Counted from the first letter of the stretch, positions 23,946 to 39,461 are shown. The stretch: 64,000 nucleotides of DNA from Candidatus Krumholzibacteriota bacterium (GCA_016931295.1 JAFGEZ010000004.1:34745-98744), one strand, 5' to 3'. Program-made: numbers and translations. The notes: generated from the sequence alone by a model not told the origin.

Positions 23946-24830
23946 ATGGATATCCGTATCAGGGACCTGGAGATGGTCTACAAGGGGGGCACGCGCGCCC
24001 TCGCCGACGTCGACCTCGCGATCTCGAACGGGATGTTCGGGCTCCTCGGGCCGAACGGCGCCGGCAAGACGACTCTCATGCGCATCCTCGTCACCCTGAT
24101 GGAGCCCACCGCGGGCACGGTCGAGGTGGACGGGATGGACCTCGCCCGCAACCGAGGCGCCGTCCGCGCGATGACGGGCTACCTCCCGCAGGACTTCCGT
24201 TTCTTCCCGAAGATCCGCACGTGGGAGTTCCTCGACTACATCGCCGCCCTCGCCGGGTTGCGCGACGGGCGGAAGCGGCGCGAGGCCGTCGACGGGATGC
24301 TCCACCAGGTGGGGCTCTGGGAGGCGCGCGACCGTTTCGCCTCGAAGCTCTCCGGCGGGATGAAGCGGCGCCTCGGCATCGCCCAGGCCCTGATCGGCGA
24401 GCCGCGAATCGTCGTCGTCGACGAGCCGACGACCGGGCTCGATCCCGAGGAGCGCATCCGGTTCCGCAACCTTCTCTCCGGGCTGAGCGGCAAGGATATC
24501 GTCATCGTCCTCTCGACGCACATCGTCGGCGACATCTCGAGCACCTGCCGCGACATGGCTCTCCTCGACAGGGGGCGCGTCGTCTACAACGGCCCCCCCG
24601 ACGGACTCGTCGAGAAGGCGAAGGGGCACGCCTGGCGCGTGACGGCCATCGACAGCGAGCTCGAGGCGCTCAAGGAGCGCTACCCGGTGATCTCGACCGT
24701 CCCGGCCGCGGGGGGCTGGGAGGTCGACATCGTCGCGGAGAATCCTCCCGAGGGGGCGCCCGCCGAGCCGGTCGATCCGGACCTCGAGCACGCGTACGTC
24801 TATTTCATGGAATTCCTGACGCCGCAGTGA
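23946..24830 (+). CDS. ABC transporter ATP-binding protein
   Basis: 294 aa. Walker A GPNGAGKTT, signature LSGGMKRR, Walker B VVVDEPTTGLD. RBS GGGAGGG. Confidence 0.9.
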   Translation: MDIRIRDLEMVYKGGTRALADVDLAISNGMFGLLGPNGAGKTTLMRILVTLMEPTAGTVEVDGMDLARNRGAVRAMTGYLPQDFRFFPKIRTWEFLDYIAALAGLRDGRKRREAVDGMLHQVGLWEARDRFASKLSGGMKRRLGIAQALIGEPRIVVVDEPTTGLDPEERIRFRNLLSGLSGKDIVIVLSTHIVGDISSTCRDMALLDRGRVVYNGPPDGLVEKAKGHAWRVTAIDSELEALKERYPVISTVPAAGGWEVDIVAENPPEGAPAEPVDPDLEHAYVYFMEFLTPQ

Positions 24831-24873
24831 GCCGGGCCGGCTCCGGGGCGGGAACGAAAACGGGAGGCTTCAC

Positions 24874-27800
24874 GTGTATACCCTCCTCACCGTGGCGAAG
24901 GCCGAGATCAGGCTTCTCCTCAGGAGCTGGTTCTTCCGGATCCTCTCCCTCGCCGCCCTCGCGATCCTGGCCTTCATGAGCCTCGGGCTCTTCACCGGGT
25001 TCTGGGGGCAGCCGTGGGTCTTCCGCGGTCTCGGCACCACGATCCCCCTCATCAATATCCTCTACCTCAACGTGGTGCAGGCGATCGTGGCGGTCTTCCT
25101 CTCGGCCGACTTCCTGAAACGCGACCGCAAGCTCGACACCACCGAGGTCGTCTACATGCGGTCGATGCCGAACGTCACCTACGTCGCCGGCAAGACCCTC
25201 GGGATCCTCGTGGTCTTCGCCCTGCTCGATCTCGTCGTCCTCGTCATGTCGGCCGTCTTCAACATCGCCTTCTCCGGCGGGCCCTTCGTGGCCTCCGCGT
25301 ACATCGTCTACCCGCTCCTCGTGGCCCTTCCGACGATCGTCTTCACGCTGGGCTTCTCCTTTCTCCTCATGACGGTCGTCCGGAACCAGCCGGTCACATT
25401 CGTTCTCCTGCTCGGCGTGATCGGGATCTCCCTCTTCTGGCTCGGTCCCAAGCAGCACGGCCTCTTCGACCTGCTCGGCTTGCACCTGCCCCTCGTCAGG
25501 TCGGGGATCGCCGGCTTCGCCGATCCCTTCGGACTCGTCCTGCAGCGGGGCGTCTTCCTGCTGCTCGGCCTCGCCGGGATCGCGGCCACCTCCCTCAGGC
25601 TCCGCCGGCTCTCCCAGTCGCGCGCGGCGACGGTCGCATCGGGCGTCCTCGCGCTTTTCTTCCTCGCCGCGGCGGTCGCCGCCGCCGGGATGCACGACGC
25701 GCGGTTCCGCCGGGCCGCCGCGGCCCGCGAGGCGATGCGCGCCTTGACGGCGGAGCTCGCCGGCGAACCCGCGCCCGCAGTCGAGCGGTGCGATCTCTCC
25801 CTCGTCCACGAGGGGAACCGGATCGACTGCGAGGCGGCGATCCTGCTCGCCAACGACGGCGACCGGCCGATCGAGCGCTATCTCTTCACGCTCAACCCGG
25901 GGCTCGAGGTGCGCGGGGTCGAACGGGGCGGCCGCGAGGCGGCCTTCACGCGCGACCGTCACGTCCTCTCGGTGACGCCGCCGGCGGCCCTGCCGCCAGG
26001 CGCGCGCGACTCCCTCGTCGTCCAATACGGGGGCGCGATCGACGACGGCGCCTGCTATCTCGACACGGGCGAGGAGGGGCGGGAGCCCTGGTTCCGGATC
26101 GCGATGTTCGTCATCGGCGAGCGCCACGCCTGGGTGACCCCCTCCTGGGTGCTGTTGACCCCCGAGGCGGGGTGGTATCCGCGCGCGGGGATGCCGTACG
26201 ATCCGGCGCGGCCCGAGACGAGGATGGCCGGCTTCGCCCGCTACCGCCTCGACGTGACGACGAGGCCCGAACTCCTTTCCGTCTCGCAGGGCGCGAGGGA
26301 AAAGCGCGGGGAGGGGCGCTGGCTCTTCGAGCCGGAACGTCCGCTCGACGGCCTCACCCTCGCGATCGGCCGGTTCGAGGAGCGGGCGATCGAGGTCGAT
26401 TCCCTCCGGTACGCCCTCTGCATCCGGGAGGGGAACGACTGGTTCGACGAGTACATGGACGCCGTCGGCGACACCCTGCCCGAGCTCGTCCGGGAGGTCC
26501 GGGCCGATTACGAGCGGCTCCTCGGCCTCTCCTATCCCGACCGGCGGTACACGATCGTCGAGGTCCCCGTCACCTTCGTCGCCCGCGAGCGGCTCTGGTC
26601 GATGCAGCGCGAGACGATCCAGCCGGAGATCGTTTTGTTGCCCGAGCGGGGCCTCCTCGTGCAGGAGGCGGATTTCAACATGTTCAAGCGGCAGATGGGC
26701 CGCAGGCGCCGCGGACCGGCCGAGGAGCTGACCCCCGCCGAGGAGCAGAGCCGGCAGTTCACGCGGTTCGCCGGGCGGGTGCTCGCCGGGGAGCTGAGCG
26801 AGCGGGGCTTCATGAACGATCTGTACCAGAACAACCGCATCTTCAACGCCTTCCCGATGTACTACACGCACGTCACACACGTCGGCTCCGGGCGGTGGCC
26901 CGTTCTCGACGTGGCGCTCGAATCGTGGATCGCCGGGCGGATCGAGGGGGAGGCGAGCCCGTTCACGAGCTTCTTCGGCGGGTTGAGCAGCGAGGAGGAG
27001 ACCAACCTCGAACTCGCGAAGACGAGCCTCGCTGATCTCGTGGCCGATCCGGAAAAGCGCGCGGCAGCCCCGGACGCCCTTCGGGCGAAGGGGCGCCAGC
27101 TCTTTCTCCTTCTCCAGCGGCACGCCGGCGAGGAGGCCTTCGCCGCCCTCGTCGACGAAGCGATCGAGGCGGGGCGGTTCGGCGGCATCGATGCCGACCT
27201 GCTGTCCGACGAGATGGAAGGCCGCTTCGGCATCGATCTCGCCGCGACGATCGATCGGTGGTACGGGGGGCGCGACCTCCCCGGCTTCATCCTCGCGGGC
27301 GTCCGCTCCTATACCGTCGTCGACGAGAACGACCGGACGCGCTACGAGGTGCGTTTCGTCGTCGGCAACGACGAGCCGGCGGACGGCGCGGTCGTCGTGA
27401 CCTTCACCGCGCGCGGACGGGGGCGGGGCTTCTTCGGCCCGCCGGGAGGCGGCGACGAGGAGAGTGTCGAACGGACGATCTTCCTCGAGGGGGGACAGGC
27501 CCGGGAGGTGGGGTTCGTCCTCGATTTCCAGCCGCGGCGGATGACCGTCAACACCCTCGTCTCGAAGAATCTTCCCGCGGCGATGATCCGCAACTTCGAC
27601 GATTTCGAGGAGGGATCGGGCGGGATCTTCGACGGCGAGCGTGTCCTCGACGCCATGCCGGCGCTCGCCGAGCCCGGCGAGATCGTCGTCGACGACCTCG
27701 ATCCGGGATTCTCGATCACCGGCGAGCGGAGCGCCGGGCTGCTCCGGCGGCTTTTGCGCCGCGGGCGCGGCGAGGAGGAGAACGAGTACGAAGGGATCGG

Positions 27801-28206
27801 CTTCGGCGCGCCGGAGGTCTGGAAGAAGGGGATCAACACCACCTTCTACGGCAGGCACGTCCTCTCCGCCCATTTCGTCCGGGCGGGGGACGGGAGCAAC
27901 CGCGCCTCCTGGACGGGGACGATCGAGAAGAGCGGCGTCCACGGCGTCTGGGCCTGGGTCGGCTCGGTGGAGTCGCCCTTCGGCAGGGGCCGCCGCGCCA
28001 ACCGGACCCAGGCGGGGAGCTACAGCTATCTCGTGCACCACGACGACGGCATCGACGAGGTGTCCCTCGACGCGCAGAAGGCCGAGGAGGGCTGGAATTT
28101 CCTCGGCTCCTGGTACCTCTCGGCCGGCGAGGCCCGCGTCGAGCTGACCGACGAGACGGACGGCGGGCGCGTCTTCGCCGACGCCGTGAAATGGGTGAGG
28201 CAGTGA
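24874..28206 (+). CDS. ABC-2-type permease fused to large extracytoplasmic M1-aminopeptidase-like (degenerate) domain, paralog B
   Basis: 1110 aa from GTG 24874 (RBS GGGAGG). N-terminal 6-7 TM ABC-2-like region. LGLSYPDRRYTIVEVPVTF segment. No HEXXH. Confidence 0.65.
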   Translation: MYTLLTVAKAEIRLLLRSWFFRILSLAALAILAFMSLGLFTGFWGQPWVFRGLGTTIPLINILYLNVVQAIVAVFLSADFLKRDRKLDTTEVVYMRSMPNVTYVAGKTLGILVVFALLDLVVLVMSAVFNIAFSGGPFVASAYIVYPLLVALPTIVFTLGFSFLLMTVVRNQPVTFVLLLGVIGISLFWLGPKQHGLFDLLGLHLPLVRSGIAGFADPFGLVLQRGVFLLLGLAGIAATSLRLRRLSQSRAATVASGVLALFFLAAAVAAAGMHDARFRRAAAAREAMRALTAELAGEPAPAVERCDLSLVHEGNRIDCEAAILLANDGDRPIERYLFTLNPGLEVRGVERGGREAAFTRDRHVLSVTPPAALPPGARDSLVVQYGGAIDDGACYLDTGEEGREPWFRIAMFVIGERHAWVTPSWVLLTPEAGWYPRAGMPYDPARPETRMAGFARYRLDVTTRPELLSVSQGAREKRGEGRWLFEPERPLDGLTLAIGRFEERAIEVDSLRYALCIREGNDWFDEYMDAVGDTLPELVREVRADYERLLGLSYPDRRYTIVEVPVTFVARERLWSMQRETIQPEIVLLPERGLLVQEADFNMFKRQMGRRRRGPAEELTPAEEQSRQFTRFAGRVLAGELSERGFMNDLYQNNRIFNAFPMYYTHVTHVGSGRWPVLDVALESWIAGRIEGEASPFTSFFGGLSSEEETNLELAKTSLADLVADPEKRAAAPDALRAKGRQLFLLLQRHAGEEAFAALVDEAIEAGRFGGIDADLLSDEMEGRFGIDLAATIDRWYGGRDLPGFILAGVRSYTVVDENDRTRYEVRFVVGNDEPADGAVVVTFTARGRGRGFFGPPGGGDEESVERTIFLEGGQAREVGFVLDFQPRRMTVNTLVSKNLPAAMIRNFDDFEEGSGGIFDGERVLDAMPALAEPGEIVVDDLDPGFSITGERSAGLLRRLLRRGRGEEENEYEGIGFGAPEVWKKGINTTFYGRHVLSAHFVRAGDGSNRASWTGTIEKSGVHGVWAWVGSVESPFGRGRRANRTQAGSYSYLVHHDDGIDEVSLDAQKAEEGWNFLGSWYLSAGEARVELTDETDGGRVFADAVKWVRQ

Positions 28207-28243
28207 CGCCCGGCGCCCGCGTCGCCCGGCGGACACGAGACGG

Positions 28244-29752
28244 ATGCGAGGAGACATGAGACCGAACAGGCACACGATACGCCGCCGGCGGCGAGCCGCC
28301 GCGCTTCTTGCGATCGCGATCGCCGTCGCCGCCGCGCCGGGGGCGCGAGGGGCGGAGCAAATCGACCTCGCGCGGGCGCTCGAGATCGCCATGTCGAACA
28401 GTCCGACGATCAGGAGGCAGCAGAACGCCCTCGAGCGGAGCCAGGAGAATCTCAACCGGCAGCGTGCGCGCCTGCGCACGAGCTTCTCGCTCTCGGTGAC
28501 GCCGATCGACTACAGCGAGCGGACGAACTTCAACGAGCTCTTCTCGACCTTCTACGATACGCGGACGACAACGTCGTCGGGGACCTTCACGATCAGCCAG
28601 CCGATCAAGCTCACCGACGGCACCCTCTACCTCGCCGACAACCTCAGCTACCGCGATTCCTACAGCGGATTCACCGACGAGACGGACATCTCGTACAGCA
28701 ACAGCCTCAGCCTCAACTACCGCCAGCCCCTCTTCACCTACAACGCGACGAGGATGGATACGAGGCGGCTCGAGCTCGCCCTCGAGAACACCGAGCTCTC
28801 CTACGCGATCGCGGTGCTCCAGCTCGAGTCGAACGTGATGAACGATTTCTACGGGGTCTACAAGGCGGGCGAGGAGCTGGCGATCCAGGAGGAGCAGCTT
28901 GCCGCCAAGGAGGAGAGCTACGGGATCGCCCGGCAGAAGGCGGACGCGGGCCTGATGGCCCTCGAGGCCCTCTACCAGGAGGAGGTGGGGCTCGCCCAGA
29001 CCCGCTCGAGCATCGAGACGAGCCGGGTCACCTATCAGTCGCGCCTCGACGGCTTCAAGAGGCTGATCGGCCTCCCCATCGACGAGGAGATCGAGATCGC
29101 CGCCGATATCGGGTACGAGCCGGTCTCCGTCGATTACGAGCAGGCCCTCTCGTACGGGCTCTCCCATCGCATGGAGCTGCGCCAGCGGGCGATCGCCCTC
29201 CAAAGCGCGATGGACGACGTCGTCCAGGCGGGCGCGGACAACGAGTTCGAGGGCGCGCTCGAGCTCTCCTACGGCACCTTCGGAACGAGCGGCAAGCTGG
29301 CCGACGTCTACGACGAGCCGGAGAAAGACCGGGGCTTCGCGATCACCTTCGAGATCCCGATCTGGGACTGGGGGGCGAAGAAATCGGGGATCCGCGCCGC
29401 GGAGACGAGCCTGCGCGACGCCGAGATCGATCTCGAGGAGCTCAAGACGGACATCGTCATCGACATCCGCTCCGCCTGGCGCAACGTCGAGGCGGCGGCC
29501 CGCCAGATCGAGCTGAAGAAGATCGAGGTGCGCAACGCCCGGTTCACCTACGATATCGCCCTCGAGAACTACCGGAACGGCGACATATCGAGCTATGACC
29601 TCAGCCAGCAGCAGACGCAGTTCACGCAGGCGCGTCTCGACGAGACGCAGGCGCTCATCGACTACCGCCTCGCCCTGCTCGAGATGAAGATCACGTCCCT
29701 TTGGGATTTCGAGAAGGAACGCCCCGCCGTCGACGCGCGGGCGCTGCGTTGA
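28244..29752 (+). CDS. TolC-family outer membrane efflux protein
   Basis: 502 aa. Signal peptide, then paired coiled-coil/beta repeats typical of OMF proteins. Confidence 0.8.
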   Translation: MRGDMRPNRHTIRRRRRAAALLAIAIAVAAAPGARGAEQIDLARALEIAMSNSPTIRRQQNALERSQENLNRQRARLRTSFSLSVTPIDYSERTNFNELFSTFYDTRTTTSSGTFTISQPIKLTDGTLYLADNLSYRDSYSGFTDETDISYSNSLSLNYRQPLFTYNATRMDTRRLELALENTELSYAIAVLQLESNVMNDFYGVYKAGEELAIQEEQLAAKEESYGIARQKADAGLMALEALYQEEVGLAQTRSSIETSRVTYQSRLDGFKRLIGLPIDEEIEIAADIGYEPVSVDYEQALSYGLSHRMELRQRAIALQSAMDDVVQAGADNEFEGALELSYGTFGTSGKLADVYDEPEKDRGFAITFEIPIWDWGAKKSGIRAAETSLRDAEIDLEELKTDIVIDIRSAWRNVEAAARQIELKKIEVRNARFTYDIALENYRNGDISSYDLSQQQTQFTQARLDETQALIDYRLALLEMKITSLWDFEKERPAVDARALR

Positions 29753-29774
29753 ATCTCCGCGAAGAGAGGATGAG

Positions 29775-30873: not shown

Positions 30874-33800
30874 ATGAAAAGCATCGCGACATTCTCCGTG
30901 CGGCACCCGGTGGCGGTCGTCATGATCGCCCTCGGCATCCTTTTGCTCGGCTACATCTCCTTCACCCGTCTCGGGATCGACCTCTTTCCCGCCCTCGATT
31001 CCCCGCGGCTCTTCGTCGAGCTCGAGACGGCCGAGATGCCGCCGGGGGAGGTCGAGGAGCGCTTCGTCGAGGGGCTCGAGGCGGCGGCCTCCCAGCAGGC
31101 CGACGTCGTCCGGGTCACCTCGGTCACCCGCGTCGGCGCCTCGCGCGTCACCGTCGAGTACTCGTGGAGCGCCGACATGGACGAGGCGTTCCTCAACCTC
31201 CAGAAGGCGGTCACGCAGGTGTCGCGCATGGAGGACGTCGAGGAGCTCGTCATCACCCAGCACGATCCGAACGCCGAGCCGGTCGTCACCCTCGCCCTGC
31301 TGCACCCCGAGATCGACGACATGGACGTCCTTCGCCGCGCGGCCGAGTCGCACGTGCGCAGCGAGCTCGTCCGCATCGAGGGGATCGCCGAGGTGGAGAT
31401 CTCCGGCGACGAGGAGAGGGAGGTCGTCGTCGAGACCGATCCCTACCTCCTCGAGGCGTACGGACTGACGACGTCGGCGATCGCGAGCCGCATCGAGGCG
31501 ATGAACGCCGACGCGACGGGGGGCTCGATCGTCGAGCTGGGGCGCGAGTACGTGATCAGGGGCATGGGGACCTTCGAATCGATCGAGGACATCGAAAACG
31601 CCGTCGTGACCTACGTTTCGCCGGAGGCGGCCGCGGGAGGCGGCGCCCCGGCGGGGAATGCCGCGGCGGGGTCGACAGGCCGGGTGCCCGTCTACCTCGA
31701 GGACGTCGCACGGGTGAGTTTGCGCAACCGCGACCCGGAGAGCATCGTCCGCGTCGACGGCAGGCGCTGCGTGGGGCTCGACGTCTACAAGGAGACGCGG
31801 TTCAACACGGTGCAGGCGGCGCGGGCCGTGATCGGGGAGCTCGACGGCCTCCGCGCGGGCCTCCCCGGCTACGAGCTCGTCGTCGTCCGCGACCAGGGGG
31901 CCTACATCACGGGGGCGATCGACGAGGTCAAGCAGGCCCTCCTCTTCGGGATCCTTCTCGCCGTGGCCGTCCTCTACGTCTTCCTCCGCCGCATCGGCAC
32001 CACGGCGATCGTCTGCGTGGCGATACCGATATCGATCGTGGCCACCTTCAATCTCATGTACTTCACGGGCCTCACCCTCAACATCATGACGCTCGGCGGT
32101 CTCGCCCTCGGGGCGGGCATGCTCGTGGACAACGCGATCGTCGTCGTCGAGAACATCCTGCGCCGGCGGGAGGAAGGGAAGGGGGCCGGCGAGGCGGCGA
32201 TCGAGGGGACGAGCCAGGTGGCCGGGGCCATCACCGCCTCGACGATCACGACGATCGTCGTCTTCCTGCCGATCGTCTACCTGCACGGCGCGGCAGGCGC
32301 CCTCTTCCGCGAGCAGGCGTGGACGGTCGCCTTCGCCCTCGTCTCCTCCCTCGTCGTGGCGGTCCTCATCATCCCGATGCTCGCCGGCCGTTTTCTCCGG
32401 GGCGGCCCGGCGGCGGCGCCGCGATCGATCCGCTTCGGCGGCTACGGGCGCCTGCTCGGCGCGCTCCTCGACAGGCGCCGTCTCGTCATCGGCCTCGCGG
32501 CGCTCCTCGTGGCCGGCGCGGCGGCGCTGCTGCCTTTCGTCGGGAGCGAGTTCATCCCCGGCTCCGGGACGGGCGAGTACACCCTCGAGCTCACGCTTCC
32601 CGAGGGAACGACCCTCGCGCGGACGGCCGCGGCGGTCGAGACGGTCGAGGAAATGATCCGCGAGCGGTTCGGCGACGAGGTGACCTCGATCTACAGCCGG
32701 GTCGGTCCCGGAACGGGGATGATCCGCACCGAGACGTCGGTCTTCGAGGACGAGAACACCGCGGTGATCCGGATCGTTACGGCCGCCGGCGGCGAGGCGG
32801 CGAGCGGGATGACCGCGGCGATCGACGCGATGATCGGGGACATCCCCGAGGTGGATGGGCGGTTCGTCCAGGACCGCTCGGCCCTCCAGACGACGCTCGG
32901 CACGGAGTCCTCGCCCGTCGTCGTCGAGGTGCGGGGGCCCGATCTCGACGTTCTCGCCGATCTCGCCCGGTCGATCAAGGAGATCCTCGCGGCGATCCCC
33001 GGGCTCGCCAATGTCGCGACGAGCTTCGAGGAAGGGCGGCCCGAGGTGCGCGTGGCCGTCGACCGCCGCCGCGCGGGGCACTTCGACGTCGACGTGGGCT
33101 CGATCGCCTCGCAGCTGCGCAACCGCCTCGACGGCACCGACGCCGGCGAGTGGGAGAGCGGGGGCGAGGAGACGCCCATCGTCCTCCGCCAGCCCGACGT
33201 GGGGATCGACGGTCTCGGCGACATCGTCCTCGAGGGGGCGGGCGGCGGGGAGGTGCGCCTCGTCGAGGTCGCCGACATCGGTCTCGGGCAGGCGCCGCGC
33301 GAGATACGCAGGCGCGACCAGGAGCGCGTCGGGCGGGTCACGGCCGACCGGTCCGACGACCGCGCCTTCGACCGTCTCGTGGCGGGGGTGCGCGAGCGCA
33401 TCGCCGCGGACGTCGACCTGCCGCCGGGATACCGCCTCGAGATCACCGGCGAGGAGCTGCTGCGGCAGGAGAGCTTCCGGTCGCTCCGCTTCGCCCTCGT
33501 CCTCTCGGTCGTCCTCGTCTACATGGTCCTCGCAGCCCAGTTCGAATCGCTCCGCCACCCCTTCACGATCCTGCTGACGATCCCGCTCGCCGGCGTCGGG
33601 GCCGTCTTCGCCTTCCTCCTCCTCGGGCGGACGCTGGACGTGATGGCCTACATCGGGATCATCATGCTCGCGGGGATCGCCGTGAACGACTCGATCATCC
33701 TCGTCGACGCGATCGGCGGACTCCGGCGCGGCGGGATGTCGATACGGGACGCGATCGTCGAGGCGGGGGTCCGGCGGATCAGGCCGATCGTCATGACGAG

Positions 33801-33975
33801 CGTGACGACGATCCTCGCCCTCCTCCCCCTCACGCTGGGATTCGGGGAGGGCGCCTCGCTGCGCGCCCCGATGGCGGTGGCAGTCATCGGGGGGCTCGTC
33901 ACCTCGACCCTCCTGACCCTCGCCGTGATCCCCTGCGTCTACCACGTCATCGACGGCCTCGGAAGGGGTGAATAG
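30874..33975 (+). CDS. RND family efflux transporter (AcrB/CzcA-like)
   Basis: 1033 aa. 12-TM RND architecture with two large periplasmic loops. GGAITASTITTIVVFLPI and similar motifs. Confidence 0.9.
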   Translation: MKSIATFSVRHPVAVVMIALGILLLGYISFTRLGIDLFPALDSPRLFVELETAEMPPGEVEERFVEGLEAAASQQADVVRVTSVTRVGASRVTVEYSWSADMDEAFLNLQKAVTQVSRMEDVEELVITQHDPNAEPVVTLALLHPEIDDMDVLRRAAESHVRSELVRIEGIAEVEISGDEEREVVVETDPYLLEAYGLTTSAIASRIEAMNADATGGSIVELGREYVIRGMGTFESIEDIENAVVTYVSPEAAAGGGAPAGNAAAGSTGRVPVYLEDVARVSLRNRDPESIVRVDGRRCVGLDVYKETRFNTVQAARAVIGELDGLRAGLPGYELVVVRDQGAYITGAIDEVKQALLFGILLAVAVLYVFLRRIGTTAIVCVAIPISIVATFNLMYFTGLTLNIMTLGGLALGAGMLVDNAIVVVENILRRREEGKGAGEAAIEGTSQVAGAITASTITTIVVFLPIVYLHGAAGALFREQAWTVAFALVSSLVVAVLIIPMLAGRFLRGGPAAAPRSIRFGGYGRLLGALLDRRRLVIGLAALLVAGAAALLPFVGSEFIPGSGTGEYTLELTLPEGTTLARTAAAVETVEEMIRERFGDEVTSIYSRVGPGTGMIRTETSVFEDENTAVIRIVTAAGGEAASGMTAAIDAMIGDIPEVDGRFVQDRSALQTTLGTESSPVVVEVRGPDLDVLADLARSIKEILAAIPGLANVATSFEEGRPEVRVAVDRRRAGHFDVDVGSIASQLRNRLDGTDAGEWESGGEETPIVLRQPDVGIDGLGDIVLEGAGGGEVRLVEVADIGLGQAPREIRRRDQERVGRVTADRSDDRAFDRLVAGVRERIAADVDLPPGYRLEITGEELLRQESFRSLRFALVLSVVLVYMVLAAQFESLRHPFTILLTIPLAGVGAVFAFLLLGRTLDVMAYIGIIMLAGIAVNDSIILVDAIGGLRRGGMSIRDAIVEAGVRRIRPIVMTSVTTILALLPLTLGFGEGASLRAPMAVAVIGGLVTSTLLTLAVIPCVYHVIDGLGRGE

Positions 33976-34006
33976 ACCGGCCGCGCCCGCGGCGCGCCGC
34001 CAGCCG

Positions 34007-37000
34007 ATGAGCATCATCGAGGGCGCCATCCGGCGCAGGACACTCGTCGCCATGATCTTCACCGGGGCGGTTCTCCTCGGCGTCGTCTCGTGGCGGCAGC
34101 TCCCCGTCGAACTCATCCCGAGCATGGAACTGCCGATGCTCGTCGTGAGCGTCTCGAGCCGCGCCTCCGCCGACCCCGAGACGATCGAGCGCCAGGCCGT
34201 GCTCGCCGTCGAGGGGGCGATCGGCACCCTCGAGGGGATCGAGAGCATCGAGACGCGCATCCGGCAGCGGAGCGCCGGGATCATGATCTCCTACCTCCAG
34301 GGCACGGACATGAAGTACGCCTACCTCCGGCTCGAGGAGAAGGTGAACCTCGTCCGCGCCTCCCTGCCGGACGGCTACGACGTCGCCGTTTCCGCGCCGC
34401 TGGACTTCTCGATGGCCGACGAGCAGCTCATGACCCTCCAGGCGCTCGGCGAGGGGGGCGTCGACCGGGTGCGCAGCGTCGTCGAGCAGCGGGTCGTCTC
34501 CCGGATCGAGGGGGTCGACGGCGTGGCCGCGGTCGGCGTGGCCGGGGGGAGCGAGGAGGCGGTCGAGATCCTCCTCGACGAGACGGCCTGTCTCGCGGTC
34601 GGCGTGACCGCCGCCGACGTCGCCGCGATCGTCAACGGCGGCGGCCCGAGCGACGCATTCGTCGGGCTCGCCGTCGACGGGGCCGAGCGGTGGTTCGTGA
34701 CGGTCTCCTCGTCGTACGAAGACGTCCGCGACATCGAGGATCTCGTCGTCCGCGGCGAGGGGGACGTCCGCCTCGGGGACATCGCGGAGATCAGGCTCGG
34801 GGCGAAGGAGGAGACGAGCATCAGCCGGGTGAACGGCAAGGACGCCGTCACGATCACCGTCACCCGCGAGAGCCAGGTCAACATCATCGACCTGTCCGGG
34901 CGCGTCCAGAAGACGATCGGCGAGATCAACCGCGATCTCGCCTCCCTCGGCGTCGAGCTCGCCGTCGAGACGGACGCGGCCGAGGCGATGCGGGAGAACG
35001 TCGATCTCGTCGTCCAGCTCGCCGTCGTCGGGGGGCTCTTCGCCGTCCTCGTCCTCTGGATGTTCCTCGGCAACGTCCGGCTCGTCGCCACGATCGCGCT
35101 GGCGATCCCCGTGTCCATCCTCGCGGCCTTCAACTTCTTCTACGCCGCCGACATCTCGATCAACCTCTTCACCCTCGTCGGGCTCGCGCTCGTCGTGGGA
35201 ATGCTGCTCGACAACAGCATCGTCGTCCTCGAGAACATCTACCGGCACCTCTCGTTCAACCGCGGCGACGTGACGGCCGCCGTTGCCGGGGGCACCGGCG
35301 AGGTCTGGCGGTCGATCCTCGCCGCCACGCTCACGACCGTCACCGTCTTTCTCACCTTCGTCTTCTCGGAGAGGATGGAGATCCGCCTGCTCGGCACCCA
35401 CCTCTCCGTCTCGGTCGTCTCCACCCTCCTCGTCTCCCTCGTCGTGGCCCTGCTCCTCGTGCCCGTCGTGACCCACGGCTTCCTCTCGCGCCGCGGCGGC
35501 GTCGACCACGCCCGTTTCCGCATCGTCACCAGGCGGAACCGGCTGATGCAGGCCTACACGACGCTCCTCAAGACGGCGCTGCGCCACCCGGCGCGGACGA
35601 TCGTTCTCGCCGTCGTCGCCTTCTTCTTCTCGCTCGCCCTCGCCATCGGCATGACGGCGGCTTCGGCCCCGGAAGAGGAGCCGAACCAGATCGACGTCTA
35701 CGTGACGATGCCGGAGGGGACGACGCTCGAGGCCACCGACGCGGCCATCGCCGACGTCGAGCAACGCCTCTCCGATCTCCCCGAGCGGGAACAGCTCCTC
35801 ACGCGCGTCGAGGCGGGGAGCGCGATGCTGCAGATCGACCTGAAGGAAGGCTACTGGGAGGAGCGGCGCTACACCTACGCGGCCGTCAAGGAGGACGTCA
35901 AGAGCCGCACGGACGAGCTGCGGGGCGGCGATGTCTCTATCGGCGAGAATCCCTCGGCCACGGGCTATCACGTGGTCGGCGGGGGAGGCGGCGGCGCGGG
36001 GGGCGCCGGGGGTCTTTTGGGCGGAGCGGCGACAACGGAGGAGATCCACGTGGAGGGGGACGATTTCGGCGTGCTGATGAACGTCGCCGAGGATCTCGTC
36101 TCCTACCTCGAGGACCTCTCGACCGTCTCGTCTGCCTCGCACGACGCGAGCGAGAACAGCCCCGAGCTGCACCTCTTCTTCGACGACGCCGTCGCCGGCG
36201 ACCGGAACGTGGCCCTCTCCGGGATCAGGCGGGAGCTCGCGGCCTTCACCGACGAGTACGGCGCCTCGGCCGTCCTCCATCGCGCGGGGGAGCGCATACC
36301 GATCGTCATCCGCACGGACGAGGTGGCGGCCGAGGGGGGCTCGGCGGGCAAGACGATCGACGAACTCCGCAGTCTTTCCGTGGCGACCTCGGACGGCGGC
36401 ACGGTGGAGCTCGGACAGATCGCCCGCTTCGTCTACGCCTTCGGCACGCCGCGGATCAACCGCTTCAACCAGGAGAAGCGCGTCACCGTGCGCTACGACT
36501 TCGCCTCGGAGGTCATGCAGTCCCGATCACTCCTCGGCGCGGCTCGCGGCGAGGTGGACGAACTCGTCGCGGGGCTCCGCCTCCCCGACGGCGTCGCCCT
36601 CGACATCGTCCACGGCGATCCCGAGTACCGCGAGTTCCTCTTCCTGATTTTCGTCGCCTTCATCCTGATCTACATGATCCTCGCCGCCGTCTTCGAGTCG
36701 CTCACCGCCCCGCTCGTCATCCTCTTCACGATCCCCCTCGCCGGCGTCGGGGCCTTCGTCCTGCTCATCCTCACCGGAACCCCCCTCGTCTCGATGTACA
36801 CGATGACCGGGCTCCTCATCCTCCTCGGCGTCGTCGTCAACAACGGGATCATCCTCATCGACTATACGCGGATACTGCGCGGGCGGGGATACCGCCGCGC
36901 CCGCGCGCTCATGACGGCGGGGCAGGCGCGCCTCCGGCCGATCATGATCACGGCGGTGACGACGATCGTCGGCATGATCCCCCTCGCGATGGGGAAGATC

Positions 37001-38752
37001 GAGCAGGCGACGATCCTCGGCGCTCCCTTCGCGATCACGATCATCGGCGGGCTCGCCTTCGGGACGGTCTTCACGCTCGTCCTCATACCGGTCGCCTACT
37101 CGGGGCTCGAGAACACGCTCGAGTGGATGCATCGCCGGGACCGGCGGCTCGTTCTGCTGCAGGCCGTCCTCTTCGCCGGCGGCGTCTGGCTCGCCTGGGC
37201 GCGGATCGACTCGCTCCTCTGGCGGATCGCCGCGATCTTCTCCCTGCTCTTCCTCGTGCCGGGATGCACCTGGTTCGTTCTGGCGAGCCTGCGACGGGCG
37301 CGGGCCGAGCTCGTTCCCGCGGAAGACGAGGTGGTCGTCAGCGTGCGCAACCTCGCCAAGGATTACGAACGGCCCACGCGCTTCGTCCGCGAGTGGCGCA
37401 AGGGGGCGCGGATCGCCGGCGAGAACGGCGGCGGGACGTCCACGTCGCGCATCCCCGGCGGGCTTCGCTGGGAGGCGCCGCTGCTCGCGTTCGCCGCCTA
37501 CTTCGTCTACGTCTACCTCGTGTCGGGCTTCTGGATATTCCTCCTCTCCCACGCCGTCTGGGCACTGGCGTGGCGCGCCTGGCGGTCGATCGAAACCGGT
37601 CTCGCCGCCCGGAGCGCGAGCGGCGAACGGATCGACCGCCTCTTTCGCGAGCTCCTCCTCTGGGCGTTCCCGGCGGCGAACCTCGTTTTCTTCTGGACGC
37701 GTTGGGAATCGCGGGCCGCCGTCGTCTTCGCGGCCGTCCTCTGGTTCGGCGCCCTCGGCGTGTACGCGCTCGCCGGGCGGGTGCGATCGGGACGCGTCGA
37801 CTTCGATCTCATCGTCGGCCGTTTCGCCGGGATCCGGCTCGCCGTCTACCGAGCCGTCTGGGCGCTGCCCCTTCTCGGACGGCCGCGGCGGCCCTTCCGG
37901 GCGCTCGGCGGCGTCTCGATGGAGATCGGCCGGGGGATGTTCGGTCTGCTCGGCCCGAACGGCGCGGGGAAGACGACGCTCATGCGTGTCGTCTGCGGGA
38001 TTCTCGAGCAGAGCTACGGCAAGGTCTTCATCAACGGGATCGACACGGCGGAGCGTCGCGAGGAGCTCCAGGGTCTCATCGGCTATCTCCCGCAGGAGTT
38101 CGGCACCTACGAGAACATGACGGCGCGCGAGTTCCTCGACTACCAGGCGATCCTCCGCGGGCTCGTCGATCGCGACGCCCGCGACGCGCGGGTCGACTAC
38201 GTCCTCGGGGCGGTCCACATGGACGAGCACGCCAACCGGCGGATCGGCGCGTTCTCCGGGGGGATGAAGCAGCGGATCGGGATCGCCCAGACCCTGCTCC
38301 ACCTGCCGCGGATCCTCGTCGTCGACGAGCCCACCGCGGGGCTCGACCCGCGCGAGCGGATCCGTTTCCGCAACCTCCTCGTCGAGTTGAGCAGGGAGCG
38401 GGTGGTCATTTTCTCGACGCACATCATCGAGGACATCTCGAGCTCGTGCAGCCTGGTGGCCGTCCTGAGCGAGGGGCTTCTCCGCTACCTCGGCGAACCG
38501 GCACGGATGACGGAGAGGGCCGAGGGGCGCGTGTGGATGGTGACGGTGCCCCCCGCCGAGTTCGAGGCGCTCCTCGCCCGCCACCGCGTCGTGCATCACA
38601 TGCGCGACGGGGCGATGGTGCGCGCGCGGGTCCTCGCCGGGGAGAAGCCCCACGCCGCGGCGGAGCGGGCCCGGCCGAGCCTCGAGGACGCCTACATCTG
38701 GCTGCTTCGCGGGAGCGGCGCGGAAGGGAGTCTGCCCCATGCCGGCAGGTAA
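34007..38752 (+). CDS. RND efflux transporter fused in frame to a TM linker and ABC nucleotide-binding domain
   Basis: Single uninterrupted reading frame of about 1580 aa (track ORF 33968..38752; likely ATG 34007). Residues about 1-1050 form a complete RND pump. They are followed by about 6 hydrophobic helices, then a full ABC NBD (GPNGAGKTT, FSGGMKQRIGIAQ, VVDEPTAGLD, STHIIEDI) paralogous to 23946..24830. Overlaps the downstream permease gene by 14 nt. Confidence 0.7.
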   Translation: MSIIEGAIRRRTLVAMIFTGAVLLGVVSWRQLPVELIPSMELPMLVVSVSSRASADPETIERQAVLAVEGAIGTLEGIESIETRIRQRSAGIMISYLQGTDMKYAYLRLEEKVNLVRASLPDGYDVAVSAPLDFSMADEQLMTLQALGEGGVDRVRSVVEQRVVSRIEGVDGVAAVGVAGGSEEAVEILLDETACLAVGVTAADVAAIVNGGGPSDAFVGLAVDGAERWFVTVSSSYEDVRDIEDLVVRGEGDVRLGDIAEIRLGAKEETSISRVNGKDAVTITVTRESQVNIIDLSGRVQKTIGEINRDLASLGVELAVETDAAEAMRENVDLVVQLAVVGGLFAVLVLWMFLGNVRLVATIALAIPVSILAAFNFFYAADISINLFTLVGLALVVGMLLDNSIVVLENIYRHLSFNRGDVTAAVAGGTGEVWRSILAATLTTVTVFLTFVFSERMEIRLLGTHLSVSVVSTLLVSLVVALLLVPVVTHGFLSRRGGVDHARFRIVTRRNRLMQAYTTLLKTALRHPARTIVLAVVAFFFSLALAIGMTAASAPEEEPNQIDVYVTMPEGTTLEATDAAIADVEQRLSDLPEREQLLTRVEAGSAMLQIDLKEGYWEERRYTYAAVKEDVKSRTDELRGGDVSIGENPSATGYHVVGGGGGGAGGAGGLLGGAATTEEIHVEGDDFGVLMNVAEDLVSYLEDLSTVSSASHDASENSPELHLFFDDAVAGDRNVALSGIRRELAAFTDEYGASAVLHRAGERIPIVIRTDEVAAEGGSAGKTIDELRSLSVATSDGGTVELGQIARFVYAFGTPRINRFNQEKRVTVRYDFASEVMQSRSLLGAARGEVDELVAGLRLPDGVALDIVHGDPEYREFLFLIFVAFILIYMILAAVFESLTAPLVILFTIPLAGVGAFVLLILTGTPLVSMYTMTGLLILLGVVVNNGIILIDYTRILRGRGYRRARALMTAGQARLRPIMITAVTTIVGMIPLAMGKIEQATILGAPFAITIIGGLAFGTVFTLVLIPVAYSGLENTLEWMHRRDRRLVLLQAVLFAGGVWLAWARIDSLLWRIAAIFSLLFLVPGCTWFVLASLRRARAELVPAEDEVVVSVRNLAKDYERPTRFVREWRKGARIAGENGGGTSTSRIPGGLRWEAPLLAFAAYFVYVYLVSGFWIFLLSHAVWALAWRAWRSIETGLAARSASGERIDRLFRELLLWAFPAANLVFFWTRWESRAAVVFAAVLWFGALGVYALAGRVRSGRVDFDLIVGRFAGIRLAVYRAVWALPLLGRPRRPFRALGGVSMEIGRGMFGLLGPNGAGKTTLMRVVCGILEQSYGKVFINGIDTAERREELQGLIGYLPQEFGTYENMTAREFLDYQAILRGLVDRDARDARVDYVLGAVHMDEHANRRIGAFSGGMKQRIGIAQTLLHLPRILVVDEPTAGLDPRERIRFRNLLVELSRERVVIFSTHIIEDISSSCSLVAVLSEGLLRYLGEPARMTERAEGRVWMVTVPPAEFEALLARHRVVHHMRDGAMVRARVLAGEKPHAAAERARPSLEDAYIWLLRGSGAEGSLPHAGR

Positions 38753-39461
38753 ACGGATCGCGGACGCCATCGATCTCGTGCGGCGGATCGTCCGCCACAA
38801 CCTGAAGATCGTCTTCGCGGGGAAGTTCGTCTATTTCCTCGGCGGGGCCGTCCTCTTCTACCTCGGCGTGACCGCGATCAACATCTTCGGCGAGGAGGCC
38901 GTGCCGACGGCCGGCACGGTCTACGATCTCCTGCTCTTCCCCGGGCTGCTCCTCGTCTTCTATCCGACGGTCTTCGGCATCCAGCAGGACGTCGACACGC
39001 GGATGATCGAGATCCTCTTCGGCATCCCCGACTACCGGTACAAGGTGTGGCTCGTCCGCCTCGTTCTCATCTACGCCATCGTCTTCGCGCTCCTCGTGCC
39101 CCTCGCCCTCTTCGCCGAGCTCGCCCTCGCGCCGATCGACGTCGGGGCGATGGTTTGGGAGCTCATGTTCCCGATCTTCTTCCTCGGCGGCGTCGCATTC
39201 ATGCTCTCGACGGTCGTCCGGTCGGGGAACGGGACGGCGGTGATCATGATCGTCCTGGCCGCGGGCTTCCTCTTCGCCGCGGGCCAGATCGGGGCGAGCC
39301 GGTGGAACGTCTTCCTCAATCCCTTCCGGCTCCCCGACGGGATGAACGAGTCCGTCTGGGCCGACGTCATCCTCAAGAACCGGATCTTCCTCGCGGCGGG
39401 AGCGGTCGTCTCCTTCCTCGCCGGCCTCTTCAACCTGCAGAAGCGCGAGAAGTTCGTCTGA
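38739..39461 (+). CDS. ABC-2 family permease (6 TM)
   Basis: 240 aa hydrophobic protein. RBS GGAAGGGAG. Start overlaps the end of the RND::NBD gene. Confidence 0.7.
   Translation: MPAGKRIADAIDLVRRIVRHNLKIVFAGKFVYFLGGAVLFYLGVTAINIFGEEAVPTAGTVYDLLLFPGLLLVFYPTVFGIQQDVDTRMIEILFGIPDYRYKVWLVRLVLIYAIVFALLVPLALFAELALAPIDVGAMVWELMFPIFFLGGVAFMLSTVVRSGNGTAVIMIVLAAGFLFAAGQIGASRWNVFLNPFRLPDGMNESVWADVILKNRIFLAAGAVVSFLAGLFNLQKREKFV

What the first reader, a model, noticed from the sequence alone, without database searches (positions are those of the whole stretch)
23946..39461. 15.5-kb single-strand operon combining ABC, RND, adaptor and TolC components into one composite export system
Seven genes are read in the same direction, separated by gaps of 43 nt or less or by overlaps: ABC ATPase, permease-M1-like fusion, TolC-like OMP, MFP adaptor lipoprotein, RND pump, RND::TM::NBD fusion, ABC-2 permease. 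Known tripartite pumps are either ABC-based (MacAB-TolC) or RND-based (AcrAB-TolC). Here both transporter classes appear as tandem-duplicated paralog pairs (two NBDs, two RNDs, three ABC-2 permeases counting 20351) around one MFP and one OMP. This implies a hybrid or co-assembled envelope-spanning machine, possibly exporting a large substrate recognised by the M1-like ectodomains.
Basis: partly seen in the sequence, partly recalled or inferred. Interest (0 to 1): 0.75.

Follow-up and report, generated by a model that had tools for sequence, protein, structure and literature searches.

The report
Conserved hybrid ABC–RND envelope export system
Seven adjacent genes encode a widely conserved but undescribed exporter in which a proton-driven RND pump subunit is fused to an ATP-driven ABC motor domain and always travels with the remaining ABC, adaptor and outer-channel parts, so two pump classes thought to work separately appear to be built into one machine.

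Summary
Positions 23946-39461 (+) hold seven tightly packed genes: ABC ATPase; a 1110-aa permease (type V ABC membrane domain, inactive M1-aminopeptidase-like domain, CBM35-like domain); a TolC-like channel; a lipoprotein adaptor; an RND permease; a 1594-aa RND::6-TM::ABC-ATPase fusion; and a 240-aa ABC-2 permease.

The fusion is real. At least 120 full-length homologues (47-54% identity, gap-free linker) occur in Krumholzibacteriota, KSB1, Calditrichota, Zixibacteria, Latescibacterota, Gemmatimonadota and cultured Bacteroidota (Parabacteroides, Marivirga, Prolixibacter, Draconibacterium, Mangrovibacterium).

Where the flank was long enough, the same gene order recurs (28 of 37 loci complete; 6 cut by contig ends). 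Genes on either side are not conserved.

A second, deep-branching version (Omnitrophota, Sumerlaeota/BRC1) has the same seven parts in a different order, with a short-linker fusion. Fused ATPases of both versions group together (73% bootstrap).

Best reading: one composite exporter, an MdtBC-like RND pair tethered to a heterodimeric ABC-2 transporter, sharing one adaptor and one channel. It probably relays an amphipathic substrate across both membranes. Physical assembly, energy coupling and substrate are inferred.

No paper on such a fusion was found. The ORF at 20351 is a divergent extra paralogue outside the conserved set.

The parts
23946..24830 (+). p2: free ABC ATPase (294 aa), DrrA/GldA/NosF-like, all catalytic motifs intact
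   Evidence: The protein matches PF00005 at E 2.2e-30 and TIGR01188/TIGR03522 below their cut-offs. The sequence shows GPNGAGKT, LSGGMK, VVVDEP and STH. It is 46% identical to the fused ATPase. Orthologues are about 60% identical and sit first in the cluster.
24874..28206 (+). p3: 1110-aa permease made of seven TM helices (type V ABC exporter fold), an inactive M1-aminopeptidase-like ectodomain, a beta-sandwich and a CBM35-like (Golvesin_C) domain
28244..29752 (+). p4: TolC-like outer-membrane channel (502 aa) with a signal peptide
   Evidence: The protein matches PF02321 OEP in two stretches at E 1.5e-40 and TIGR01844 at 101.7 bits, below its cut-off. The N-terminal signal sequence is visible.
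29775..30848 (+). p5: periplasmic adaptor (MFP) lipoprotein (357 aa)
   Evidence: TIGR01730 scores 187.6 bits against a cut-off of 94.9. HlyD_D23 and HlyD_3 also match. The lipobox is LFLASC.
30874..33975 (+). p6: unfused RND permease (1033 aa)
   Evidence: ACR_tran matches model positions 1-1020 of 1021 at E 2.7e-214. TM4 reads MLVDNAIV and TM10 reads IAVNDSII; across 35 orthologues the TM4 Asp is invariant and N replaces K940 in 34 of 35. It is the clear orthologue of the unfused RND in the second cluster type, 40-42% identical.
33968..37114 (+). p7, RND module of the fusion (likely start ATG 34007; about residues 14-1049)
   Evidence: ACR_tran matches residues 17-1045 at E 5.5e-162. The best solved relative is MdtB, 9lyq. 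TM4 LLDN and TM10 VVNN are at least 90% conserved in 120 homologues.
37115..37891 (+). p7, linker module (residues 1050-1308): two TM helices, the first beta-strand of the ATPase (VVVSVRNLAK, residues 1122-1131, nt 37331-37360), then four more TM helices
37892..38752 (+). p7, fused ABC ATPase domain (residues about 1309-1594)
38739..39461 (+). p8: 240-aa six-TM permease, distant ABC-2 (NosY-like) family, overlapping the fusion's stop codon by 14 nt
   Evidence: Hydropathy shows six TM helices. It is always the last gene of the cluster, 42-57% identical in all but the most divergent locus (27% in L035). hhalign gives E 5.9e-6 to the 283-aa PF12679 permease of the second cluster type and a weak colinear match to the p3 membrane domain at E 0.047.
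20351..23668 (+). p1: extra, divergent paralogue of p3 (1105 aa); accessory, not part of the conserved seven-gene set
   Evidence: It is 33% identical to p3 over its full length and at most 31% identical to any of 120 p3 homologues. Its GC3 is 0.73, against 0.91-0.95 for the seven genes. A 277-nt gap separates it from p2, and it has its own AT-rich upstream region. It is absent upstream of p2 in Mangrovibacterium.

Best explanation
**Claim.** The seven genes encode one composite, envelope-spanning exporter.

**RND side.** Two paralogous RND permeases (p6 and the RND module of p7), one lipoprotein adaptor (p5) and one TolC-like channel (p4) form an MdtABC-TolC-like tripartite pump.

**ABC side.** The C-terminus of p7 continues into six extra membrane helices and an ABC ATPase domain. 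That fused ATPase, together with the free ATPase p2, powers a heterodimeric type V (ABC-2) transporter. Its membrane halves are the small permease p8 and the large permease p3. The periplasmic part of p3 is a catalytically dead M1-aminopeptidase-like clamshell plus a CBM35-like module.

**Most likely mechanism: a two-step relay.**
1. The ABC part uses ATP to lift an amphipathic, membrane-associated substrate (lipid-, peptide- or glycan-bearing) out of the cytoplasm or inner leaflet to the periplasmic face.
2. The p3 ectodomain holds the substrate there.
3. The RND/adaptor/channel part, held next to the ABC part by the fusion, expels it across the outer membrane.

**Shown.**
- The domain identities.
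- That the fusion is real and conserved.
- That the seven-part set is strictly co-inherited in two different gene orders.
- Intact ATPase motifs in both ATPases.
- The type V fold of the p3 membrane domain.
- Loss of the M1 zinc site.

**Inferred.**
- Physical assembly.
- The 2 ATPase + 2 membrane-domain heterodimer.
- The RND subunit ratio.
- The direction and order of transport.
- The substrate class.
For: **The fusion is real and under selection.**
- The 120 best-scoring hits are all full-length fusions of 1538-1651 aa carrying PF00873 plus PF00005, 47-54% identical.
- The linker has no gaps and the ATPase is nearly invariant.
- The linker profile hits only fusion proteins among 1.84e9 representatives. 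One apparent stand-alone hit is a contig-end truncation.

**The set is co-inherited.**
- The order p2-p3-p4-p5-p6-p7-p8 is found in 28 of 37 loci that carry the fusion. Six of the rest are cut by contig ends.
- These loci include cultured Prolixibacter, Draconibacterium, Marivirga, Parabacteroides, Bacteroides sp. 224, Maribellus and Mangrovibacterium.
- Downstream genes are not shared among 34 loci. In the two loci where the upstream side was read, it holds unrelated genes.
- Distance matrices of all parts correlate at 0.73-0.92.

**A second cluster type keeps the same parts in another order.**
- The order is MFP, NBD, small ABC-2 permease, RND, large M1-like permease, RND::NBD, with an OMP last in two of the three loci.
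- Homology to p8 and p3 is confirmed.
- Which ATPase sits next to which permease is swapped between the two types. This fits all four forming one unit.
- Fused ATPases of both types are monophyletic (73 of 100 bootstraps). Free plus fused of one type never group together.

**Ancestry of the ABC part.** The closest stand-alone ATPases are followed by double-length ABC-2 permeases. This fits a 2+2 architecture.

**Precedents in the literature.**
- MdtB2C1 is a heterotrimeric RND with one adaptor (PMC7015380).
- YbhGFSR combines an adaptor with two ATPase domains and two different six-TM permeases (PMC7190983).
- Inner-membrane pumps feed tripartite pumps through the periplasm (PMC4338810).

**Fold of p3.** The p3 membrane domain matches NosY, PmtD, ABCG and Wzm exporters.
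Against: - No experiment, transcript data or multimer model was available, so assembly and stoichiometry are unproven.
- The six-helix linker has no recognisable fold and no assigned role. It is absent from the second cluster type.
- The p7 C-terminal model is only moderate in quality (pLDDT 74, pTM 0.49).
- The ABC-2 identity of p8 rests on weak, transitive profile matches.
- Both RND modules lack K940 and D408 of the AcrB proton relay, so proton coupling cannot be assumed.
- Some lineages carry two large permeases (window p1; L084). This complicates a simple p3+p8 heterodimer.
- The outer-channel gene is missing from the cluster in L035 and L086.
- Nothing identifies the substrate.
Confidence: 0.5

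Rival explanations
1. Mechanotransmission or loader model. The ABC part does not carry substrate across the inner membrane. ATP hydrolysis instead moves the large M1-like/CBM35-like ectodomain of p3, as MacB, LolCDE, FtsEX or NosDFY use ATP to do periplasmic work. The ectodomain captures a periplasmic or outer-leaflet substrate and loads it into, or gates, the neighbouring RND pump.
Against: Type V exporters with this fold (PmtCD, ABCG, Wzm/Wzt, KpsMT) are true translocators. The second cluster type lacks the CBM-like module. No test available here separates this model from the relay model.
Confidence: 0.25
2. ATP-driven or dual-energised RND. The fused ATPase, dimerising with p2, mechanically drives or primes the conformational cycle of the RND trimer, replacing or supplementing the proton motive force. 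The small and large permeases act as coupling elements.
For: Both RND modules have lost K940 and D408 of the canonical relay in all orthologues checked. The ATPase is attached directly after TM12, with only about 120 residues of linker in the second type. This window's organism and many other hosts look anaerobic (2-oxoacid:ferredoxin oxidoreductase genes next to the cluster), and fermenters are said to rely more on primary transporters (PMC4338810).
Against: The TM4 Asp (D407 equivalent) and the TM11 Arg (R971 equivalent) are conserved, the Asp invariant in the sets checked, which suggests a working if reduced proton path. Two dedicated ABC-2 permeases are always present and are the natural partners of the ATPases. 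No known RND is ATP-coupled.
Confidence: 0.12
3. Two functionally independent pumps, an ABC-2 exporter and an RND tripartite pump, are merely co-expressed and co-localised. The fusion serves only to fix stoichiometry or membrane location, and there is no hand-over of substrate.
For: Each half has all the parts of a known transporter type. In E. coli different pump classes share TolC without forming one machine (general knowledge).
Against: A fusion kept end to end across many phyla with a gap-free, aromatic-rich linker argues against this. So does the strict co-inheritance of all seven parts in two gene orders with one adaptor only. Neither is expected for unrelated functions.
Confidence: 0.08
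4. Artefact. The 1594-aa ORF results from a lost stop codon, a frameshift or a misassembly in one metagenome-assembled genome.
For: High-GC DNA yields long spurious ORFs.
Against: The 120 best-scoring hits are all independent full-length fusions, including ones on complete chromosomes of 4-7 Mb and from cultured strains. GC3 in the frame is 0.94.
Confidence: 0.01

Closest known systems
MdtABC-TolC / MuxABC-OpmB (RND tripartite pumps with two different RND subunits)
   Same: Two paralogous RND permease genes sit in tandem with a single adaptor and an outer channel. MdtB is the best solved relative of the fused RND module. MdtBC works as a B2C heterotrimer (PMC7015380).
   Different: Here the second RND subunit continues into six TM helices and an ABC ATPase. 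ABC genes are obligatory members of the cluster. K940 and D408 of the proton relay are replaced. NCBIfam equivalogue scores fall far below the MdtB/MdtC cut-offs.
YbhGFSR of E. coli (and the RbbA/YhiI type): ABC-2 exporter with an adaptor
   Same: The system combines an adaptor protein, two ATPase domains and two different six-TM ABC-2 permeases, forming a (TMD)2(NBD)2 unit (PMC7190983). The ATPases here also match the RbbA model region.
   Different: YbhGFSR has no RND partner and no fusion to an RND. Its permeases lack an M1-like/CBM ectodomain, and its two ATPase domains are fused to each other rather than one being fused to an RND.
MacAB-TolC (ABC-type tripartite efflux pump)
   Same: It is an ATP-driven inner-membrane component with a periplasmic domain, working with an adaptor and a TolC-like channel.
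   Different: MacB is a four-TM FtsX-type (type VII) transporter with an N-terminal ATPase. Here the membrane domains have the NosY/ABCG (type V) fold, there is no FtsX or MacB_PCD match, and the MacA model scores 27.6 against a cut-off of 342.
NosDFY and GldAFG (NosY/GldF-type ABC-2 systems with periplasmic partners)
   Different: In those systems the periplasmic partner is a separate protein (NosD, GldG) of unrelated fold, and no RND, adaptor or outer channel is involved. Scores here are below the equivalogue cut-offs.
Second type of RND::NBD clusters (Omnitrophota, Sumerlaeota/BRC1, Hinthialibacter; uncharacterised)
   Same: The same seven parts are present, and the fused ATPases are monophyletic with those of the window's type.
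   Different: The gene order is MFP, NBD, small permease, RND, large permease, RND::NBD, with an OMP last in two of the three loci. The fusion has a short linker without extra TM helices. The large permease lacks the Golvesin_C/CBM module.
TAF2 and other inactive M1-aminopeptidase homologues
   Different: TAF2 is a nuclear eukaryotic protein with an unrelated context. Here the domain is periplasmic and fused to an ABC membrane domain.

Membership tests
RND tripartite efflux pump (AcrAB-TolC / MdtABC-TolC kind) | 12-TM RND permease matching the AcrB family model end to end | tested here: met
   PF00873 matches positions 1-1020 of 1021 in p6 and 2-1018 of 1021 in the p7 RND module.
RND tripartite efflux pump (AcrAB-TolC / MdtABC-TolC kind) | Cognate periplasmic adaptor and outer-membrane factor encoded with the pump | tested here: met
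   TIGR01730 scores 187.6 against a cut-off of 94.9, and p5 has a lipobox. OEP matches in two stretches at 139 bits, and p4 has a signal peptide.
RND tripartite efflux pump (AcrAB-TolC / MdtABC-TolC kind) | Canonical proton-relay residues (AcrB D407, D408, K940, R971) | tested here: not met
   D407 and R971 are kept. D408 is replaced by N and K940 by N in both RND modules across the orthologues checked (one exception each in p6).
RND tripartite efflux pump (AcrAB-TolC / MdtABC-TolC kind) | MdtB/MdtC equivalogue score | tested here: not met
   NF007798 scores 355.7 (p6) and 274.9 (p7) against a cut-off of 1584. NF007905 scores 344 and 265 against a cut-off of 1774.
RND tripartite efflux pump (AcrAB-TolC / MdtABC-TolC kind) | Trimeric (here heterotrimeric) assembly with six adaptors and a channel trimer | not testable with these tools
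   This needs a multimer prediction or biochemistry.
MacAB-TolC kind (type VII ABC tripartite pump) | FtsX-type four-TM permease with a MacB periplasmic core domain and an N-terminal ATPase | tested here: not met
   No FtsX or MacB_PCD hit appears even at E up to 10. The p3 membrane domain has the NosY/ABCG fold. The MacA model scores 27.6 against a cut-off of 342.
Type V (ABC-2) ABC exporters | ATPase with intact Walker A, Q-loop, signature, Walker B and H-loop motifs | tested here: met
   All motifs can be read in p2 and in p7. They are invariant in 38 aligned fusions.
Type V (ABC-2) ABC exporters | Membrane domain with the NosY/Wzm/ABCG-type helix bundle | tested here: met
Type V (ABC-2) ABC exporters | Second membrane half (p8) of the same fold | tested here: inconclusive
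   p8 has six TM helices. hhalign gives E 5.9e-6 to a PF12679 permease and E 0.047 to the p3 membrane domain.
M1 zinc aminopeptidases | M1 fold (N-terminal beta domain plus thermolysin-like domain) | tested here: met
M1 zinc aminopeptidases | HEXXH-(18)-E zinc site and GXMEN substrate-anchoring motif | tested here: not met
   The motifs are absent from p3, from p1 and, at the homologous position, from all 120 homologues; there are only five scattered, non-homologous pattern matches. The alignment has no conserved His in the region. The domain is therefore not a peptidase.
CBM6/CBM35-like carbohydrate-binding modules (Golvesin_C) | Beta-sandwich matching the family model | tested here: met

The most novel reading that the evidence does not exclude
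The system is the first example of an RND pump that is mechanically coupled to ATP hydrolysis. In this reading it is a dual-energised (ATP plus proton motive force) or fully ATP-driven tripartite machine. The fused ATPase and its ABC-2 partners form one supercomplex with the RND trimer and carry a substrate from the cytoplasm or inner leaflet to the cell exterior in a single coupled cycle. This would be a further class of tripartite envelope transporter alongside the ABC, RND and MFS classes, with an ancient single origin shared by the FCB group, Omnitrophota and Sumerlaeota.
Probability: 0.15. Interest if true: 0.95.

Novelty: new variant of a known kind. Interest (0 to 1): 0.78.

Why it matters
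**Why it is surprising.** Tripartite envelope pumps are classified by a single inner-membrane motor: ABC, RND or MFS. A 2021 review of the field holds no mention of an RND-ABC fusion in the 300,000 of 747,799 characters that could be searched. No searchable paper describes one either. A conserved, covalent ABC-RND hybrid with its own obligatory partner set challenges that classification.

**What it makes testable.** A long-standing question is how transport across the inner membrane is coupled to expulsion across the outer membrane, and whether two energy sources can drive one conduit. This system offers a direct handle on it.

**Why it can be tested.** The system occurs in cultured, partly genetically tractable bacteria (Parabacteroides, Bacteroides sp., Marivirga, Draconibacterium, Prolixibacter, Mangrovibacterium).

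**Possible wider relevance.** It could bear on intrinsic drug tolerance, on outer-membrane lipid or glycolipid export, or on peptide secretion in gut and sediment Bacteroidota and in many uncultured phyla.

Tried and rejected
**Searches that found nothing.**
- Literature: five searches for an RND-ABC fusion or its domain pair and for a permease/M1 fusion, plus a term search of the held part of a comprehensive review. None found a description.
- Rfam over 18900-24100: no hit.
- Plasmid collection: no full-length fusion.

**Attempts to place p8, p3 and the linker by sequence or fold.**
- Pfam and NCBIfam gave nothing for p8 or for the membrane part of p3 in the window copy.
- A PDB profile search for p8 found nothing.
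- hhalign of p8 against the fusion linker showed no relation.

**A stand-alone version of the linker plus ATPase.** The one candidate, P0267, turned out to start 65 nt from a contig end.

**Conserved neighbours that might hint at a substrate.** Downstream genes are not shared among 34 loci. Upstream genes differ between the loci examined.

**Mirror-tree analysis to see which parts co-evolve most.** All parts correlate strongly. After removing the common signal, the residuals are small. They point the expected way (ATPase with p8 and the p3 membrane domain; p3 ectodomain with p6) but are not interpretable.

**Orthology of the fused RND module between the two cluster types.** BLAST alone could not resolve it: 28-31% identity to both p6 and p7.

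**Rejected readings.**
- An active peptidase: no zinc site.
- A MacB-type ABC pump: wrong fold.
- Frameshift or assembly artefact.
- p1 as a member of the conserved set.

Full report
**Source and observation**

The window comes from a Candidatus Krumholzibacteriota metagenome-assembled genome. The 1594-aa protein is 100% identical to an NCBI record on a 164,762-bp contig.

- p2: 23946-24830
- p3: 24874-28206
- p4: 28244-29752
- p5: 29775-30848
- p6: 30874-33975
- p7: 33968-38752
- p8: 38739-39461

The gaps are 43, 37, 22 and 25 nt, followed by overlaps of 8 and 14 nt. Homologue N-termini suggest that p7 really starts at ATG 34007, 31 nt after the p6 stop.

All seven ORFs have GC3 of 0.91-0.95 in the called frame. 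The consensus scan found no excess of terminator-like or promoter-like sites and none in the intergenic gaps. A strong hairpin at 39525-39547 belongs to the convergent downstream gene.

**Identity of the parts**

*p2* is a DrrA/GldA/NosF-like ABC ATPase with all motifs intact.

*p4* is a TolC-like protein with two OEP repeats and a signal peptide.

*p5* passes the RND adaptor model: TIGR01730 scores 187.6 against a cut-off of 94.9. It has the lipobox LASC.

*p6* matches the AcrB family model end to end.

*p7* has three sections:
- An end-to-end RND module (residues 17-1045), whose best solved relative is MdtB.
- A 260-residue linker.
- An ABC ATPase.

An AlphaFold model of residues 1041-1594 (pLDDT 74, pTM 0.49) shows this order:
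- two TM helices;
- a beta-strand (VVVSVRNLAK, residues 1122-1131) that corresponds to the first strand of the ATPase;
- a short helix;
- four long TM helices;
- the rest of the ATPase.

Foldseek and a profile search of PDB sequences agree. Pfam calls the last module Golvesin_C. [quoted passage not shown]

The HEXXH and GXMEN motifs that define M1 peptidases are absent from p3, from p1 and, at the homologous position, from all 120 homologues; only five scattered pattern matches occur. The domain can bind but not cleave.

*p8* has six TM helices and no Pfam hit of its own. Its family profile matches a permease that hits PF12679 at E 5.9e-6.

**The fusion is real and is a family**

A search of 5.8 billion proteins returned, as its 120 best hits, only full-length proteins of 1538-1651 aa. 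All carry both PF00873 and PF00005, at 47-54% identity. They come from Krumholzibacteriota, KSB1, Calditrichota, Bacteroidota, Gemmatimonadota and others.

In their alignment the linker has no gaps and many invariant aromatic and proline residues. The ATPase is almost invariant.

A profile of the linker alone, run against 1.84 billion representative proteins, found only 139 clusters. In every full-length hit the match lies at about residues 1030-1290 of a protein of about 1570 aa. The remaining hits are fragments. The one apparent stand-alone copy begins 65 nt from a contig end.

**Synteny**

A scan of one genome per species recovered 37 loci with the fusion. They include these cultured strains:
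- Prolixibacter bellariivorans
- Draconibacterium mangrovi
- Marivirga sericea and M. tractuosa
- Parabacteroides massiliensis
- Bacteroides sp. 224
- Maribellus maritimus

tblastn with the window's proteins gave the following:
- The order p3-p4-p5-p6-p7-p8 occurs in 28 loci.
- p2 lies in front in 22 of them. The rest are cut by the 10-kb flank limit.

The nine exceptions are:
- six contig-end truncations;
- one frameshift-ridden assembly (L022);
- one Latescibacterota chromosome whose cluster lacks the channel gene (L035);
- one locus of a different type (L038).

Independent look-ups in a 4.27-Mb genome, a Calditrichota genome and Mangrovibacterium diazotrophicum show the same seven genes with matching Pfam content.

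Genes downstream of p8 are not shared among 34 loci. In the two loci where the region upstream of p2 was read, the genes there are unrelated to each other. The module therefore has sharp, conserved borders. Distance matrices of all parts correlate at 0.73-0.92, as expected for a block inherited together.

**A second cluster type**

L038 led to a second family of RND::NBD fusions, 1410-1470 aa long. It occurs in Omnitrophota, Hinthialibacter and Sumerlaeota/BRC1.

Three loci share this order:
1. adaptor
2. free ATPase
3. small ABC-2 permease (231-283 aa)
4. RND
5. large permease (882-920 aa, M1-like, without the CBM module)
6. RND::NBD
7. channel (absent in one locus)

The small and large permeases are homologous to p8 and p3. 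The unfused RND is the clear orthologue of p6, at 40-42% against 28% identity. The fusion has a short cytoplasmic linker without extra TM helices, but it keeps an insertion after the first ATPase strand.

A neighbour-joining tree of 91 ATPase domains gave these groupings over 100 bootstraps:
- Fused ATPases of both types group together in 73 replicates.
- Free plus fused of one type group together in 0 replicates (type 1) and 7 replicates (type 2).

The fusion probably arose once, before the two types diverged.

The same seven parts in two gene orders is strong comparative evidence that they work together. Which ATPase lies next to which permease is swapped between the two types. This fits all four forming a single 2+2 ABC unit.

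**Origin of the ABC half**

The closest stand-alone relatives of the ATPases are 40-49% identical. They come from Chloroflexota, Acidobacteriota, Firmicutes, Verrucomicrobiota and others. Each is followed directly by an ABC-2 permease of 510-740 aa that matches the p3 membrane core, in some cases twice. One Myxococcota locus has an 1190-aa permease with an M1-like part. The ancestor was probably an ordinary two-gene ABC-2 exporter.

**Energy coupling of the RND half**

Aligned to MdtB/AcrB, both RND modules keep the TM4 Asp (D407) and the TM11 Arg (R971). Both have Asn in place of D408 and K940.

The pattern across orthologues is:

| Module | TM4 | TM10 | Conservation |
|---|---|---|---|
| p7 RND module | LLDN | VVNN | at least 90% in 120 homologues |
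| p6 | D invariant; next residue N in 34 of 35 | N in 34 of 35, then D (16 orthologues) or N (19) | 35 orthologues |

The relay is reduced but not obviously dead. Whether these modules use protons cannot be decided from sequence.

**Mechanism**

The best-supported reading is one composite exporter.
- p6 and p7 form an MdtBC-like RND assembly with p5 and p4. MdtBC is a B2C heterotrimer with one adaptor (PMC7015380).
- The fused ATPase pairs with p2.
- p3 and p8 are the two membrane halves, as in YbhGFSR. There an adaptor accompanies two ATPase domains and two different six-TM permeases (PMC7190983).

RND pumps take substrate from the periplasmic side, and inner-membrane pumps are known to feed them (PMC4338810). 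The fusion would therefore hard-wire a two-step relay:
1. ATP-driven extraction to the periplasmic face.
2. Capture by the M1-like/CBM ectodomain.
3. Expulsion through the RND/adaptor/channel part.

The type V fold of p3 points to an amphipathic, membrane-associated substrate. Its relatives are lipid, sterol, phenol-soluble-modulin and lipid-linked-glycan exporters. The substrate itself is unknown.

The steps beyond domain identity and co-inheritance are inference. I give this reading about 0.5.

The rivals are:
- A mechanotransmission or loader model (0.25).
- An ATP-driven or dual-energised RND (0.12).
- Two independent pumps that are only co-localised (0.08).
- An artefact (refuted).

**The extra paralogue**

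The ORF at 20351-23668 (p1) is a full-length but divergent copy of p3.
- It is 33% identical to p3 and at most 31% identical to any of 120 homologues.
- Its GC3 is lower, 0.73.
- It has its own AT-rich upstream region containing the only promoter-like hit in the 20-kb region scanned.
- A 277-nt gap separates it from p2.

It is not part of the conserved set, although a Gemmatimonadota genome also carries two large permeases in tandem.

**Novelty**

Databases label these proteins generically. Examples are 'efflux RND transporter permease subunit', 'golvesin C-terminal-like domain-containing protein', and the JGI label 'AcrB/ABC-type ... ATPase subunit'.

Five full-text searches found no description of an RND-ABC fusion or of this cluster. 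A term search of the held part of a comprehensive 2021 review (the first 300,000 of 747,799 characters) found none either. I could not check TCDB or subscription journals.

All parts are of known kinds, but their obligatory combination and covalent linkage are not. I rate it a new variant of a known kind. There is a minority chance (about 0.15) that it is a truly new, dual-energised class.

Noticed in passing
window 20351-23668 (+) and 20090-20260: An extra full-length paralogue of the large permease has clearly lower third-position GC (0.73 against 0.91-0.95 in the seven genes). An AT-rich stretch precedes it and holds the only sigma-70-like hit in the 20-kb region scanned (20001-40000). It could be a recently acquired or fast-evolving accessory copy.
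   Followed up: partly
window 19119-19457 (-) and 19774-20094 (-): Two small ORFs (112 and 106 aa) each have an N-terminal hydrophobic segment and ferredoxin-like CxxCxxC motifs. They lie in a lower-GC stretch just upstream of the extra permease. No family search was run on them.
   Followed up: no
L038 638-15949; L085 406-16032; L086 1094-14314: A second, deep-branching type of the same system occurs in Omnitrophota, Sumerlaeota/BRC1 and Hinthialibacter. It has the same seven parts in a different gene order, a short-linker RND::NBD fusion of 1410-1470 aa, and a large permease without the CBM-like module.
   Followed up: yes
L084 9010-22900 (Gemmatimonadota MAG): Two large M1-like permeases lie in tandem between the free ATPase and the channel gene. 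Duplication of this component therefore recurs in more than one lineage.
   Followed up: partly
L035 1430-15407 (Latescibacterota chromosome OZ244847.1); L086: The cluster lacks an outer-channel gene, leaving six genes. In these lineages the channel must be encoded elsewhere or shared.
   Followed up: partly
window 37115-37891 (p7 residues 1050-1308): The first beta-strand of the ATPase is separated from the rest of the domain by an insertion. In this family the insertion holds four TM helices. In the second type it is only about 45 residues. This is an unusual split of an ABC ATPase fold, and its role is unknown.
   Followed up: partly
window 14690-17476 (-): A 928-aa protein has a dockerin-like repeat and a C-terminal FlgD_ig/CHU_C (type IX secretion signal-like) domain. 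It is unrelated to the cluster.
   Followed up: no
window 39572-42072 (-) and 39525-39547: Convergent 2-oxoacid:ferredoxin oxidoreductase genes (POR gamma; TPP/POR_N/4Fe-4S) end at a strong GC-rich hairpin with a T-run, 64 nt after the p8 stop codon. The genes suggest an anaerobic host.
   Followed up: no
L001 22558-24728: A type II CRISPR-Cas locus (Cas2, Cas1 and an HNH/RuvC protein) lies about 8 kb downstream of the orthologous cluster in a 4.27-Mb genome. It is probably unrelated.
   Followed up: no
L075 3296-7740 (Archangiaceae MAG): A simple two-gene ABC system has an 1190-aa permease that weakly matches the profile of the M1-like large-permease family (p3 homologues). It shows that this permease architecture also exists outside the composite system, without any RND partner.
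   Followed up: partly
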